This document shows positions 33,001 to 42,000 of a stretch of DNA of 64,000 nt, in pieces (position 1 is the first letter of the stretch; every line of letters starts with the position of its first letter). The position numbers are program-made. Source of the DNA: Candidatus Latescibacterota bacterium. Lineage in GTDB: Bacteria > Latescibacterota > UBA2968 > GCA-2709665. The stretch spans positions 32,001-96,000 of the forward strand of contig CBDDDZ010000002.1 in the NCBI GenBank assembly GCA_965226795.1, given 5' to 3'.

Positions 33001-36000
33001 AGCGCGTAATTCAGCGGGGCAACGCCCTCGTTCCATGCTCCGTCCTCACCCTGGATGGAGACGATCCGTTCGACCTCTCTTTCAACCGTGGATAACCAGG
33101 CCCCGGCTTCGGGCGCGTACGGCATCAAGGCCAGGCAGCCGACGCCGGCGCCGAAAACCGGCACCCAGCAATCGTGGTAATGGTATCGCCGGCTCCAGCC
33201 GGCCTCGCCCGTATCCATATGCCGGACCATGCGCCCGGTCTCGACCCGCAACACCTCCACCGCCCGGCGCACGAGCGCATCCGGCAGAACCCTTCCGAAC
33301 AGGTCCACGCCATAGGCCAGCGCCATGACGTGAAAGGCCACCAGATAGGTGGATTTGACCTTTTCGTCATCAGCGGCGTCGACCTCGACCCACCGAGTCA
33401 GCCAGCGTTCGGCCAGGCCGCTCCACCGCCTGTCGCCGGTGAGATGGTAGGCGATGCCGCAGTTCACCACCAGAGAGAAACAGATCTCAAGGATATCGCT
33501 GTACGCCGGCTCCTCCAGGTCCCAGAGCGTACCGGGCGGATCGTGGGCCAACCGGCCGTTCAGATCTCGGACCAGCGCCCGGTAGAACCGTGCGTGAGAC
33601 GAGGAGCAGCGCCTGCGCAGTTCGTCCAGTTCATCGGCAGACAGAATCAGCCGCGGGGCCGCGGGATCCACCATCGGCGGCATCCTTTCAGGGACAGAAC
33701 ACGAGACCGCGCCACACCAATCCGGGTCGCCTGAGAACCGGCGCAATCCTTGTGAGCGCCGCCTATCGAATGTGCATCAACCCAAGTCTAAATCATCCCG
33801 GGAAGGATTGCAAGTCCCATCGACCGTGGAATGAAGGGCGGCGCTCTTTGGATCGGTCGGACCGGAGGATTGCGGCCCGTCCCGCGGCAGATCGAACACC
33901 CTCACCGCCGGGGTCCCCCTGGAGTATGGAAGCAAGGCACTCTACGGACTCCATGTCGACCCAATTTCATTTTAAAAAGGCCAGCGTGCGACCCGGACGC
34001 GCCCGAGTGAGGGCCAGCCGTCCTGAAATTCCGAAATCACCCCGTTTTTTTCCTTGACAAAATCTGTTTATAGGTGTTATCATTATTTCTATTAGCCTAA
34101 TTTTTTCGCGTATCCGCCTCATTGGCGGGTATCGAAACGGCATCGCGAGGGCTTTCTCTGTGGGGAGGGGCACCATCTTGCCGTACCCGCAGTAAACGGC
34201 CCTGGTCCTGCGGGAATTATCGGCGGCGCTCGCGAGGCCCGATCCCATCACAAGGAGGGCAGTCTATGGGCACATGGAGGTATACGGCTGTTATCGGATG
34301 TCTGGTGTTGCTTCTCGCACCGGCTTCCGGCGCACGGGAGTATAACCGGATCGGCGGGCGGTTACTGCTGGGCTACAACCTGCCCGTAATGGGGCTGCGG
34401 ACCAACTGGTATAACCAGGCCGTACGGTGGGGAGGCAGCGTGGTTTACAACCGGGATGTCAACACCGCTCTGGAGTTCGAATACCATCGGCTGCAATACA
34501 ATGACGGCAAGATCGAGAATCAGACATTCACCTGGAACGAAGACGCGAGAGAATATTCGAGCCCCAACTCCGAAGCAAGTATGCGGATCAACAGCGTGCT
34601 GTGCAACGTGATTTTTCGACTCGGTGACAGATCAAACCTTTTCTCTAGCCAGACGACGTCCCCCTACGTCGTCGCCGGAGGAGGGTTTCACAGCTACAGC
34701 AATAGCGTGAGCGGCCTTATTTACCCGGGGCAGGACGGCATCGCGGTCGAAGATAGCGAGGACAATATACTTGACCCAACCCAGGTCCTCGCAACGGTGG
34801 TCGAAAGCCGATCGGCCCTCGGGGCACATTTCGGGTTCGGCGTCGAACGGTTTATGTCGAACAATTTTTCACTGGATTTCCGGGTTCAGCACAATTTCCT
34901 GGTCGGGACCCTCGGTCCCCGGGAGGCCTGGGGCATAAAAGGAGTTATGCCGCTGCTGCAGATGCTGGATCTGGAGGTCGCGGTCAAATTCTACGAAACA
35001 GGAAGGTAGCGAGCCACGCATGCCCGGGAAAGGAGGAGGCGTAATCCCTACGGGCGTGTACGGCCGCAGTTAAGACTGGGAGACCACAATTAAAACGGAG
35101 ATTCGGCAATGAAGAAGTGTGTTTTGTTTTTCGGAGTTCTTTCCCTCTGCACGGCACTGGCTTTAAGCGGAAGCGCCTGGGCCGGCACGACCGGAAAGAT
35201 TGTTGGAAAGGTTCTGGACCAACAGGGCGAAGCGCTGCCCGGCGCCAACGTGGTCATCGAGGGCCTGAACATCGGATCCACGGCCGATGCGGAGGGGTAC
35301 TACGTTATTCTGCGCGCCGATCCGGGGCTCTATACGCTTAAGGCGTCCCTGGTCGGATATGAGGCGGAGTCGCAGACGGAAATGCGGGTGCAGGCCGACG
35401 TGACCACGGAGGTTGATTTTATGCTCCAGGAGGCGACGCTGGAGTTGGGGGAGATGGTTGTCAAGGCGGAACGCCCTCCCGTGGAGGTCGACAAGACCTT
35501 CAGCAAATACATCGTCGGCGCCGATGAGATCGAGCAACTTCCCATCGTGCGCACCACCAGCGAAATGATCACGCTGCAGCCGGGCGTTCACCTGGACGGT
35601 TCCGACCGCATGCGGGGAAGCAACCGCCCCGGAGAATGGCGAAGTCGCACGGGCGGAGACGTGGCCTATTACGTGGACGGCGTGAAAATCGTGAACAGCG
35701 ACGGCGCCGGCTCCCACAACTGGAAGAGCATCAACCGGTCGACCGTCCAGGAGATTTCCGTGGTTACGGGCGGGATGAACGCCGAGTACGGCAACGCTCA
35801 GGCCGGGGTCGTCAGTATTATTACGAAAGACGGCGGCCAGAACTTCCACGGATGGGCGGAGTACCGCCGGACGCCGCCGGGCCAGAAGCACTGGGGCGCA
35901 AACGCCTACGAAAGCCCGATGCACCTCGACAAGATGAAATGGGGCGAGGGCGTCTGGGAGAACGAGCGTGATCCCGATACGGGCCGACTCACTCACCAGC

Positions 36001-39000: not shown

Positions 39001-42000
39001 CGCTGAACCGGGACCCCGTGAGGATCAGTAACTGGTCGTTCGGGGAATACCCGACCGCGGGGCCGCCGGCCGCGCCTTCGTCCCGTTCCGACGAATGGCC
39101 CGAAGAAATCATACTCACCAAGTGGACCACGCTGGCGGGGGTTACCTTTACGCGGAGGACGATGACCTGGAGCTATCCCGCGTGGGATGACTTCATCATT
39201 ACGGAGATCGAATTCGAGAACACGGGCGACAGCGACGGAGACGGAGAGAGGGACCTGCCCGCGGAAACGCTGAGCGACGTCTTCATACCCATCATCAACG
39301 CCTGGATGCTCACGGATGCGGGGCTTTCCCACTACAACCGGTCGGATAGCTGGCACTGGTACAACGTGGGCGGTCTCGACGACTGGGTCGTTTATACGGA
39401 GAATGCCGGCTATTCGGGTCCGGCCAAGGGGCTGAAGATGATCGTGGACTGGGACGGCGACAGTCCGGAGTTCCCGTGGGACGATACGGGCGATCCCGTC
39501 AACCGGCTGATTATTTCGCCGTCGTGCGATACAGGCCGTAAGGACGGCGAGTTCACCTCCTATCAGTATATGGGCTTCGGGCCCCTGGCGTATCAGGACG
39601 GCGGCGAGTGGGGCTTCAACTCGCGGGACCAGGGCAAATATGCACAGCCTGAGGGTGATCAACCGCACGCAGTGCGCTTCTGGCGGATCGAAGGCACAAC
39701 TGTGTCCGCGGACCCTCGGCCGGGCGCGCACGACCGGCAGACCATGTACAACATGATAACGGAACAGGGCCATCAGTCCAATCCCGGAGAGATCGGAGTG
39801 TTCTACAGCGCCGAGACCTTTGGCCCGTATTCATTGGCGCCGGGCGATAAGGCCAAACTGGTGGTGGCCTGGGTGGGTGGTTCCGGCGCGGGAGAGAGCG
39901 ACCTCTACTCCTGGACGCGGTCCCATCTTTACGACTTCGACGGCCTGAAGAAGGGCGAAGGCTGGATGGTGGAGTTCTTCAAGCGGGCGAAGTGGGCCTA
40001 TCAGAACGAGTACGACGTGCCGGATTCGCCGCCGGACGTGTACGTGGCGGTCTCAAACAGCCCGGACGCGCAGAACCTGCTCAAGTGGAACTCGGCCGAC
40101 GGCGCAATGAATCCCGACTATATCGGCGCAGCGGCGCAGGACGTGGCGGGTTACCGGGTTTACCGGTCCGAATGGAACCCGGACGGGCCGTGGGACAGGA
40201 TCGGCGAGGTTTCGGCGGGCACCCATACGTATACGGACGAGTTGTCGGTAGCCGGCTTCAACTACTGGTATTCGGTAAGGCCGTTTGCCAGCGGCCACGA
40301 AGACTGGGTGGGCCGAGTGGGCACGATGGCCACGCTGCCTGAACTGGTGCAGGCGCAGGTGAGGGCCGGCCTGGAGGGCGGCCAGTGGGCGCGGTCACAG
40401 CGCAAGCCGCCGTTTTACAGCCCGAAGCAACCCGCGGTGGGCGAAACCGAGCAGTTGGGCCGGGAGGTTTTCGTGGTACCCAATCCGTTCCGGGTTGGCG
40501 ACGCCAATCTGCAATACCCGGGCAAACCGCAGATCCGGTTCGTGAACGTGCCTAGCAAGTGCTGGATCTACGTATTCAACAGCGCGGGCGACATGGTCGG
40601 AAAGATCCTCCACGACGACCGTACGGATGCGCCGAACGATTCCAGTCTATGGCTGGGCGAAGCGCAATGGGACCAGTTGGCGATGTCGCTGGGCACCGGG
40701 TCGATTTCTGCGGGCGTCTATTTCTTCGTCGTGGAATCTCTCGTTTCCGAAAGTATGGGGAAGAAGCGGATAGGGAAATTCATGGTCATCCGATAGCCGG
40801 CGCGCGGCAATTCCGGTAAGGAGCGATAAGCTTATGAAGCGGATACTTTGTATGACACTGATGACCGTTCTCGTGGCCGGCGCATACTGGGACCCGCCCG
40901 CGGAAGCGCGGGACGCACCCGAAATCCTGAAGTCCGAGGATTTCAGGAAATTGGGTCTGGCGTCGTTTCCGTGGATGAAAGTGACCCAGTCCCCCCGTGC
41001 TTCGGCTATGGGTGATGCATTTACAGCCGTGTCGAACGACATCAACGCGATCTTTTTCAATCCCGCGGGTCTGGTTCACCTGAAGCGTTTCGGCTACCAG
41101 CTTTCCCACACCAGGTGGCTGGTCGACACCGGATTCTACAGCGGTGCGTTGGCCTACAGGACGGGTTGGGGCGTGTTGGGCGTCAGCGTCGTGAATTACG
41201 ACGTGGGCGATATGCCGGTGAGGACAATTTACAATCCCGAGGGCACGGGCGAGATGGTAAAAGGCGGCGGGACGGCCGCCGGCGTGGCCTATGCGTTTCA
41301 GGCAACCGACAAGCTGGGCCTGGGCATCCGGGCGGTGTATGTTTCGGAGACCCTGCACGTCGACAATATGTCCTCGCTCGTACTGGACGCCGGCACCCAC
41401 TTCTATACGGGTTTTCGAAGCTCACGGATAGCTCTAGCCATGCGGAATTTCGGGCCGGACACGAAGGTGCTGGCCGAAGATCAGAAATTCCTGATGCCCA
41501 TGAATTTCGATATCGGCGTGGCCATGGAGCTTTTCGGCCAGATGGGCGATCCGAATTACCTGACCGTTTCGGCCGAGAGTTCGTATCAGGTGGACTACGA
41601 ACAACGCTGGCAGATGGGCGGGGAGTTGTGGCTGTCAAACGCCGTGGCACTGCGAGCAGGATACAAGTTCAACCACGACCTGGAAAGTTACAGTTTTGGC
41701 GCGGGATTCAAGGGCGCCTGGGGAGACCGAACGGTTCTGGTTGACGTCGCCTATACCAATGTCGGCGACTTACTCGACGCACCGATACGGTTCAGCATTG
41801 GCGGCGCGTTTTAACTTTAATTGCCGTCGCGGCCTTGCGCGGGGCCATTTGACGTGAACAGAGCTTACGGCGGCGCAATGTGTCTCCGGCCGGGTTGGCG
41901 GGATGGGGCATTGGCCGCCGTTTTGTTGTCGACGCAAGGATCGGTAAGGGGTAAGAAAAGGCCCGGGCAGAATGGGACCGGACGGTAGTCTTCCCATCGA

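What a model noticed while it worked through the whole genome (the two positions that open the first line are those of the whole stretch)
34266..41814. Six paralogous outer-membrane modules: Oar-type TonB-dependent transporter, an ~800-aa surface protein with a T9SS-like [...]
The genome has six copies of a conserved gene triad: an Oar-like TonB-dependent transporter (CarboxypepD_reg+Plug, ~1020-1080 aa), a 759-842-aa protein of a family without any annotation, and a PorV/PorQ-family barrel (C2:66266-73814 g00090-93; C2:632387-638906 g00527-29; C4:102980-111227 g01189-93; C4:430946-438179 g01464-67; C5:2540731-2548299 g04097-4100; C5:2718541-2725923 g04235-38). Five are preceded by a ~240-aa small beta-barrel protein and four are followed by a GWxTD/TPR protein. 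The ~800-aa protein ends in a T9SS-type C-terminal domain that is predicted to dock onto the neighbouring PorV/PorQ-like barrel, as PorZ does on PorQ. I propose that each module is a TonB-dependent uptake [...]
Evidence so far: All-against-all blastp groups the six ~800-aa proteins (g00092, g00528, g01190, g01466, g04098, g04236) and the five small barrels into families made only of these genes; gene order in call 16. Only 13 homologues of g00092 at E<=1e-5 in 5.8 billion proteins, none named; one carries PF13585 (T9SS type B CTD). NCBIfam at E<=1: the C-terminal ~90 residues of three of the six paralogues match T9SS PorZ (E 3e-4, 5e-3; its last 90 positions) or Por_Secre_tail (E 0.03); the other three match nothing relevant. 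AlphaFold2 model pLDDT 75, pTM 0.81: all-beta multidomain; Foldseek finds only FN3/beta-sandwich likenesses, PorZ 5m11 among them. Complex prediction of PorV-like g00093 (6-row alignment) with [...]
(Added by a program. Inside this text positions count along the whole contig: contig position 32,001 is position 1 of the stretch shown here. "Call 12" and the like, gene names such as g00115 and contig names such as C1 are that model's own, and its searches are not shown. The text may have been shortened before it was handed on; [...] marks where a part breaks off. The agent that wrote the report below was given it as the finding of a first reader that could run no searches.)

Follow-up and report, generated by a model that had tools for sequence, protein, structure and literature searches.

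The report
TonB importer with barrel-tethered surface partner
This sponge-associated bacterium repeats six times a gene unit made of an outer-membrane importer, an unannotated secreted protein and a small barrel that probably holds that protein on the cell surface, which looks like an undescribed alternative to the SusC/SusD nutrient-capture pair of Bacteroides.

Summary
The unit is real. Small OMP barrel, TonB-dependent transporter (TBDT), 810-aa partner and PorV/PorQ-family barrel are adjacent behind a near-consensus promoter, with six old paralogues in this Latescibacterota-like genome. Two first-stage claims fail: the partner family is large (1,760 clusters at E<=1e-10, several FCB lineages including Rhodothermus), and 'Oar-type' is unshown. 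The partner is a beta-supersandwich, like glycosidase N-terminal domains but lacking their catalytic barrel, plus FN3 and a PorZ-like tail. TBDT, partner and barrel trees are largely congruent. The tail is a distinct subtype: 0 of 24 tails adjoining such a barrel gene are clearly of the ordinary type, and where the partner has an ordinary tail, either barrel and TBDT are missing or a separate tail-only protein is inserted. The genome has SprA and no SusD. Best reading (0.55): a SusD-free uptake unit whose T9SS-exported partner stays on its own barrel and feeds its own TBDT. Partner-TBDT contact and substrate are inferred only. The same annotated gene order is printed, uninterpreted, in a Rhodothermus alginate locus; I found no description of the unit in ten searches. 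This scan noted the triad at least eight times on other DNA.

The parts
34054..34083 (+). sigma-70-type promoter-like site, 11 of 12 matches, extended -10
   Evidence: best of 6 sites in 16 kb; RNA-library contigs of two studies begin at 34132-34188 (weak hint)
34266..35009 (+). small outer-membrane beta-barrel (OmpA-like class, 247 aa), accessory to the Latescibacterota subtype
   Evidence: PF13505 E 2.9e-5, under cut-off; Atlas OMP-barrel clusters 0.96-0.97; present in 65 of 80 close loci, in none of the distant subfamilies
35109..38258 (+). TonB-dependent transporter, 1049 aa: CarboxypepD_reg domain, plug, barrel ending in Phe
   Evidence: PF13715 and PF07715 above cut-off; SusC/RagA model only 72 bits against 368
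38364..40796 (+). 810-aa partner: signal peptide without lipobox, beta-supersandwich core with linker helices (about 41-545), FN3 domain (about 553-690), T9SS-type tail of the module subtype (about 700-810)
   Evidence: AF2 pLDDT 87.8, pTM 0.91; fold matches; profile hits to Fn3 and to PorZ tail 5m11; tail test
40834..41814 (+). PorV/PorQ-family outer-membrane barrel, 326 aa, private to the module
   Evidence: NF033709 159.7 bits against 90; PorV and PorQ equivalogs not reached; PDB PorV 6h3i E 0.002
42012..49138 (+). copy-specific downstream genes: two FGE-sulfatase-domain proteins, TPR protein, FG-GAP/ASPIC protein, GWxTD-TPR protein; not part of the conserved core
   Evidence: kept as a block in the 12 orthologous loci L010-L021, not in the other subfamilies

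Best explanation
Each module is a self-contained, SusD-free outer-membrane uptake unit. The partner crosses the inner membrane by its signal peptide and the outer membrane through the SprA translocon by its C-terminal tail. The tail is of a special subtype that is collected by the module's own PorV/PorQ-family barrel rather than the housekeeping PorV, and stays bound uncleaved, as PorZ does on PorQ. The partner then sits on the surface, FN3 as spacer, and its supersandwich domain binds a solute, most likely an oligosaccharide or other sugar conjugate, and hands it to the co-inherited TBDT, which TonB energises. DUF6785 permeases and neighbouring catabolic enzymes take over inside. Shown: gene order, conservation, co-divergence, domain anatomy, tail subtype tied to the barrel gene, SprA present, SusD not found. 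Inferred: export route, tail retention, solute binding, partner-TBDT contact, direction of transport, substrate class, role of the small barrel.
For: TBDT directly upstream of the partner in 80 of 80 and barrel directly downstream in 78 of 80 close loci; all three genes in 30 of 41 mostly distant loci. Trees of 45 modules: 20 of 27 well-supported TBDT splits recur in the partner tree (1 strong conflict) and 19 of 27 in the barrel tree (4 conflicts); shuffled labels give at most 2. Tail test on 39 proteins: the 24 tails next to a barrel gene score at most 38 bits on a general-tail profile; all 10 clear general tails (79-113 bits) are orphans (4) or have a separate module-tail protein inserted before the barrel gene (6), five of these just signal peptide plus tail. 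Tail matches PorZ (profile E 2.1e-5; Z 12.2, rmsd 2.2, 93 residues). SprA passes cut-off; a more PorV-like gene lies elsewhere. No SusD match in this genome, control positive. Core fold is found in carbohydrate-processing proteins (Z 18.1, rmsd 2.7, 223 residues to glucoamylase N-domain). TonB gene in one module's gene run; DUF6785 within 7 kb of 5 of 6 modules, 0 of 20,000 random draws reach 5. TBDT, T9SS-tail protein, PorV/PorQ gene stand in that order in the R. marinus alginate locus (PMC9530828). Precedents: PorZ-PorQ (PMC10947112); cognate shuttle gene directly downstream of type B cargo (PMC12618676).
Against: Neighbouring genes are copied together, so congruent trees show long co-retention, not contact. 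The tail did not track the barrel more than the TBDT, nor the core the TBDT more than the barrel. Module-type tails occur without an adjoining barrel gene in 5 of 39 cases (one at a contig end), and L026 lacks the barrel; 3 of the 24 barrel-adjoining tails are borderline. The split and orphan cases come from three genomes of one phylum, so are not independent. A shared fold shows no function, and invariant acidic residues (D339, D340, D364, D374) could be catalytic. Neighbours in this genome are mixed (peptidases, sugar dehydrogenases, aminotransferase), with no classical polysaccharide-degrading cluster. PorL/M/N were not found (no positive control), so how export is powered is open. Homology of the alginate-locus hypA to this family was not tested.
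Confidence: 0.55

Rival explanations
1. The partner is a barrel-anchored surface enzyme (a stand-alone supersandwich hydrolase, lyase or epimerase) that makes fragments for the TBDT, like SusG rather than SusD.
For: Conserved acids D339/D340/D364/D374 (60-63 of 63 rows); stand-alone supersandwich enzymes are among the fold matches: mutarotase-like proteins Z 13.7, and GH174 fucanase 9k1g Z 14.1 with residues 77-372 of 449 aligned.
Against: No histidine is conserved in the core, whereas mutarotases use His/His/Glu (recalled); the best matches are the non-catalytic N-domains of GH15/GH94/GH65, whose catalytic barrel the model lacks; one family accompanies TBDTs in very different gene contexts.
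Confidence: 0.2
2. The TBDT is not an importer but serves export or envelope assembly (as Oar does for PopC, or as a PorF-like T9SS accessory), possibly exporting the partner itself.
For: Oar precedent (PMC6434023 abstract); PorL/M/N motor and ring genes not found, so another energy source for export would be useful; FGE-domain proteins distantly like GldK follow this copy (far under cut-off).
Against: SprA and a housekeeping PorV-like gene exist; nine ordinary T9SS tails pass the cut-off elsewhere in the genome and none lies in these modules; permeases cluster with the modules; the same annotated order sits in a catabolic alginate locus; copy number runs to 20 or more in some genomes, which fits substrate diversification.
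Confidence: 0.1
3. The partner and barrel form a structural cap or adhesin (stabilising or shielding the TBDT, or binding host matrix) with no role in solute capture.
For: Tail-only proteins exist beside the barrel in split modules, so the tail can act as a mere cap; a cap role was proposed for PG1035 on PorP (PMC9143113); the organism is sponge-associated.
Against: The core gene is retained next to the TBDT even in split modules; the unit also occurs in Rhodothermus marinus and in KSB1 and Fidelibacterota records.
Confidence: 0.1
4. The genes are merely co-regulated neighbours, with no physical or mechanistic coupling between the barrel-partner pair and the TBDT.
For: Orphan partner homologues exist (L101, L102, L105, L108, L115, L117); tree congruence is expected from linkage.
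Against: Order and adjacency are kept at 27-56% identity and across lineages while the flanks change.
Confidence: 0.05

Closest known systems
SusC/SusD (RagA/RagB) pairs of Bacteroidota utilisation loci (PMC11658791, passages seen)
   Same: Large TBDT with N-terminal CarboxypepD_reg extension followed directly by a cognate surface partner; many paralogous pairs per genome; catabolic and permease genes nearby.
   Different: Partner is not a lipoprotein and not SusD-like; it is a supersandwich-FN3 protein with a T9SS tail and has its own barrel gene. The TBDT is far under the SusC cut-off.
PorQ-PorZ sub-complex of the Porphyromonas gingivalis T9SS (PMC10947112, abstract and section 3.3 seen)
   Same: [quoted passage not shown]
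   Different: Six private barrels per genome, none reaching the PorQ equivalog; the partner body is a supersandwich, not PorZ's propellers (PorZ body recalled); linked to a TBDT, not to the sortase.
Type B CTD cargo with cognate PorP/SprF shuttles (PMC12618676, PMC9143113; passages seen)
   Same: Cargo gene followed directly by a dedicated barrel gene; several cognate pairs in one genome.
   Different: Barrel is PorV/PorQ family, not PorP/SprF; tail is not a cut-off-level type B domain; no PorE partner; TBDT upstream.
tonB-hypA-hypB in the Rhodothermus marinus alginate locus (PMC9530828, section 18 and term search seen)
   Same: Same annotated order: TonB-dependent receptor, T9SS-sorting-domain protein (726 aa), PorV/PorQ-family protein.
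   Different: Listed as hypothetical genes in a figure legend, not interpreted; no small barrel named; homology of hypA to this family not tested (a plasmid triad of the same species was).
N-terminal beta-supersandwich of GH15/GH94/GH65 enzymes and aldose-epimerase-like proteins
   Same: Fold of the core, including the following helices (Z 18.1 to 1lf6).
   Different: No (alpha/alpha)6 catalytic domain follows; 6-13% identity; no sequence match in the PDB.

Membership tests
SusC/SusD pair | TBDT of the SusC/RagA family | tested here: not met
   TIGR04056 72.1 bits against cut-off 368, N-terminal part only
SusC/SusD pair | Partner is a SusD-family lipoprotein | tested here: not met
   No Pfam match; no lipobox pattern in 0 of 45 partners; mainly beta model; PF07980 and PF14322 find nothing in the genome while B. 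thetaiotaomicron rings
SusC/SusD pair | Partner gene directly after its TBDT gene | tested here: met
   80 of 80 close loci; 33 of 41 mostly distant loci have a TBDT in the cluster
SusC/SusD pair | Partner caps the TBDT and binds substrate | not testable with these tools
   Needs co-purification, cryo-EM and binding assays
PorQ-PorZ type anchor | Barrel of the PorV/PorQ family | tested here: met
   NF033709 139-177 bits against 90 in all six
PorQ-PorZ type anchor | Barrel is a PorQ orthologue | tested here: not met
   NF033711 45-72 bits against 220
PorQ-PorZ type anchor | Partner carries a PorZ-like T9SS tail | tested here: met
   Profile positions 608-715 match 5m11 665-758, E 2.1e-5; Z 12.2, rmsd 2.2, 93 residues
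PorQ-PorZ type anchor | Partner body is PorZ | tested here: not met
   Core is a supersandwich; only the tail region aligns to 5m11
PorQ-PorZ type anchor | Tail stays uncleaved and bound to the barrel | not testable with these tools
   Indirect only: tail subtype and tail-only proteins
T9SS cargo | SprA/Sov translocon in the genome | tested here: met
   TIGR04189 498 bits against 200
T9SS cargo | PorL/M motor and PorN ring in the genome | tested here: inconclusive
   No match, but no control genome rang
Type B CTD / PorP-SprF pair | Dedicated barrel gene directly downstream of the cargo | tested here: met
   78 of 80 close loci
Type B CTD / PorP-SprF pair | Barrel of the PorP/SprF family | tested here: not met
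   Pfam and NCBIfam give PorV-family models only
Type B CTD / PorP-SprF pair | Type B tail (PF13585) | tested here: inconclusive
   Sub-cut-off PF13585 in 4 of 33 homologues, FlgD_ig in 4, Por_Secre_tail in 1; none in the window protein
Oar-type TBDT | Specific relationship to M. xanthus Oar | not tested
GH15/GH65/GH94 enzymes | (alpha/alpha)6 catalytic domain after the supersandwich | tested here: not met
   FN3 and tail follow instead

The most novel reading that the evidence does not exclude
Across the non-Bacteroidia FCB lineages, the role of SusD is filled by a T9SS-exported supersandwich lid that is tethered without a lipid, through a third class of secretion tail bound for good to a private PorV/PorQ-like barrel, giving a three- or four-membrane-protein import machine; these cells may run a minimal T9SS (SprA plus many shuttle-anchors, no recognisable PorL/M motor) largely to build such importers.
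Probability: 0.35. Interest if true: 0.85.

Novelty: new variant of a known kind. Interest (0 to 1): 0.66.

Why it matters
SusC/SusD is the marker by which nutrient-capture loci are found, so lineages without SusD (Latescibacterota, KSB1, Fidelibacterota, Rhodothermales; abundant in sponges, sediments and seawater) are poorly read. A recognisable TBDT-partner-barrel unit would give a new marker, a new candidate ligand-binding family of more than a thousand clusters, and a direct link between type IX secretion and TonB-dependent uptake. It is testable in a cultured organism: R. marinus carries a homologous triad on a plasmid and the same annotated order in its alginate locus.

Tried and rejected
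Complex prediction of the TBDT's C-terminal half (residues 554-1049) with the partner core (41-544), each with a 63-row alignment: no verdict, score 0.00 twice, no controls folded; only half the barrel fits the size limit, so it says nothing either way. Barrel plus tail was not re-predicted. Partial-correlation test for domain-specific pairing: no signal. PDB sequence searches with the core profile, the TBDT and its C-half profile: no match. Foldseek on the whole partner: only low-TM FN3 and phosphorylase hits. Word-indexed homologue search: 24 hits, none from Rhodothermus, so hypA stayed untested. The metagenome collection could not be scanned with the broad alignment. A shared promoter for all six modules: near-consensus sites before three, a 9-of-12 site before one, none before two. 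RNA evidence: contigs only, flanks covered as well, no DNA run or silent control laid, so expression level and a single transcript are not shown. SusD in the wider order: one match each in 16 of 21 genomes of one other genus, none in the 21 genomes of this family, so the two systems are not mutually exclusive. FGE proteins as PorK: 101-122 bits against 350, rejected. No paper on the GH174 structure was read (listing only). Look-alike search of earlier notes by place: nothing.
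Full report
OBSERVATION. The window (G000:C2:32001-96000) holds four co-directional genes: a 247-aa small barrel (34266-35009), a 1049-aa TBDT (35109-38258), an 810-aa protein with no Pfam match (38364-40796) and a 326-aa PorV/PorQ-family barrel (40834-41814). A promoter-like site with 11 of 12 matches lies at 34054-34083. Close relatives are mostly titled Candidatus Latescibacterota, and RNA runs that hold the stretch include sponge metatranscriptomes.

HOW WIDESPREAD. An exhaustive profile search with the six partners gives 4,635, 1,760 and 216 clusters at E<=1e-3, 1e-10 and 1e-30; some weaker hits will rest on FN3 and tail alone, but many of the 150 listed span the core too. 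A match at E<=1e-15 occurs in 119 of 151 genomes of the phylum. Named members among the 30 clusters I looked up are from KSB1, Rhodothermales, Fidelibacterota and 'Bacteroidota bacterium'; Atlas neighbours are from Fidelibacterota, Zixiibacteriota and Gemmatimonadota. R. marinus plasmid pRMAR01 carries TBDT, hypothetical protein, PorV/PorQ protein (RMAR_RS14120-14110), and that protein aligns with the core and FN3 at 99.8% probability.

GENE ORDER. In the 80 best of 171 loci from the genome collection, a TBDT precedes the partner in 80, the barrel follows in 78 (one contig end, one true absence) and the small barrel precedes the TBDT in 65. These are mostly kin (20 clusters at 60%). I therefore took 40 stretches from eight further genomes, chosen from the 97 matches for having flanks, plus the plasmid locus; a few repeat close loci. 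All three genes were found in 30 of 41, a TBDT in 33, a barrel in 32, the small barrel in 8, all of the close subfamily. The core is thus the triad; small barrel, GWxTD (37 of 80) and DUF6785 permease (49 of 80) are accessory. In this genome 5 of 6 modules lie within 7 kb of one of 22 DUF6785 genes; 0 of 20,000 random draws reach five. The window's copy is the exception. One module's gene run includes a TonB gene.

CO-INHERITANCE. In trees of 45 modules, 20 of 27 TBDT splits with support >=0.9 recur in the partner tree (1 strong conflict), 19 of 27 in the barrel tree (4 conflicts), and 17 of 25 partner splits in the barrel tree (7 conflicts); shuffled labels share at most 2. The small barrel shares 7-8 of 10 splits, though its distance correlations do not exceed permutations. 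Most of the six copies here group with modules of other genomes rather than with each other. Linkage alone gives congruence, and a test for domain-specific pairing showed nothing, so this shows retention, not contact.

THE PARTNER. AlphaFold2 with 94 rows gives pLDDT 87.8, pTM 0.91. The core (about 41-545; separate model pLDDT 83.5) is a beta-supersandwich followed by helices, closest to the N-terminal domains of glucoamylase (Z 18.1, rmsd 2.7, 223 residues), glucodextranase and GH94 phosphorylases, then GH174 and mutarotase-like proteins at Z 12-14. The catalytic helical barrel of those enzymes is absent; an FN3 domain and a tail follow. No lipobox pattern was found in 45 partners. Conserved polar residues of the core are mainly aspartates (D275, D276, D339, D340, D364, D374), no histidine; they may bind metal, ligand or be catalytic. 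The tail matches that of PorZ by profile (E 2.1e-5) and structure (Z 12.2).

A TAIL SUBTYPE TIED TO THE BARREL. The genome has nine ordinary T9SS tails above the TIGR04183 cut-off, none in the modules. Profiles built from those nine and from the six module tails separate them cleanly within the genome (cross-scores 3-22 bits). On 39 tails from the distant loci (the close loci L123-L131 and the first module of L133 left out): the 24 that adjoin a barrel gene never exceed 38 bits on the general profile (21 clearly module-type, 3 borderline). Ten have a clear general tail (79-113 bits): four are orphans with no TBDT or barrel detected, and six sit in split modules where a separate small gene with a module-type tail lies between partner and barrel; five of the six are, by eye, signal peptide plus tail only. 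Five module-type tails lack an adjoining barrel gene (one at a contig end). These cases come from three genomes, so they are few events, but they indicate that the barrel needs this tail type and that the tail is a working part, not a disposable signal.

SECRETION AND SUSD BACKGROUND. SprA passes its cut-off; a PorU-like gene is present under cut-off; a separate barrel at C5:3062173 scores 154 bits on the PorV equivalog against 49-76 for the module barrels, the likely housekeeping shuttle. PorL, PorM and PorN were not found, without a positive control. SusD families find nothing here or, for PF07980, in 20 other genomes of the family, with a positive control.

EXPRESSION. Eleven runs on record as RNA, from three studies, hold the stretch. 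In the four laid, contigs begin at 34188, 34173 and 34132 in two studies, just after the promoter-like site, and one contig spans 34173-42211. Flanks are covered too and no control was laid: a weak hint of one operon.

MECHANISM. Most likely (0.55) the partner is exported through SprA, collected by its private barrel and kept there by its tail, as described for PorZ on PorQ (PMC10947112, section 3.3) and like cognate type B cargo-shuttle pairs (PMC12618676, PMC9143113, passages), and its core captures solute for the cognate TBDT, in the place of SusD (PMC11658791, passages). Rivals: surface enzyme (0.2), TBDT as exporter like Oar (PMC6434023, abstract; 0.1), cap or adhesin (0.1), mere co-regulation (0.05). 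Substrate, contact with the TBDT and the small barrel's role are inferred or open.

PRIOR ART. Nine searches on this question (listings, with seven papers opened in part) and one on GH174 found no description of the unit. The alginate locus of R. marinus is printed with TonB receptor, T9SS-sorting-domain protein and PorV/PorQ protein in this order, as hypothetical genes without comment (PMC9530828, section 18). The Caldithrix genome paper does not mention PorV (PMC5317091, term search). Most subscription papers and all supplements were outside my view. Eight earlier notes of this scan describe the same triad on other DNA; they are not independent support, and I had stated the same reading before seeing them.

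VERDICT. Real, conserved and apparently undescribed as a system; built from known parts in a new combination; not a member of SusC/SusD or PorQ-PorZ by the tested criteria, but probably working like both at once. New variant of a known kind; interest 0.66.

Noticed in passing
L099:9200-9826, L100:9002-9400, L103:9064-9519, L104:9098-9529, L107:6195-6620: Secreted proteins that consist of a signal peptide and a module-type T9SS tail alone, between a partner with an ordinary tail and the barrel gene.
   Followed up: partly
G000 whole genome (SprA at C5:1390276-1396500): SprA, PorV-like and PorU-like genes are present but PorL, PorM and PorN were not found; possibly a minimal T9SS. No positive control.
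   Followed up: partly
G000, 22 places: Large expansion of DUF6785/DUF6784 inner-membrane proteins (22 copies) and of GWxTD-TPR proteins (15 strong copies).
   Followed up: partly
window 27517-30822 (- strand): Two aminoglycoside 3-N-acetyltransferase-family genes flanking a metallo-beta-lactamase-fold gene, beside an S15 peptidase and a GNAT; probably a catabolic cluster.
   Followed up: no
window 31574-33746 (- strand): Heparinase II/III-like sequence in two ORFs (268 aa and 439 aa), divergent from the module promoter; may be one split gene.
   Followed up: no
window 1-64000: GC skew turns from negative to positive near 34 kb, where gene orientation switches.
   Followed up: no
L002:13804-14490 (C4:109800-110489): 229-aa protein with Temptin_C and dockerin-like matches inserted between small barrel and TBDT in one module.
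   Followed up: no
L120:6047-13685: A module with changed order: TBDT, barrel, partner.
   Followed up: no
L093:13408-15934 (R. marinus pRMAR01): The plasmid triad is followed by a peptidoglycan-recognition-family protein and a serine hydrolase, hinting at cell-wall fragments as substrate there.
   Followed up: no
L115:1354-5935: Two tandem, near-identical partner genes with module-type tails and no TBDT or barrel detected nearby.
   Followed up: no
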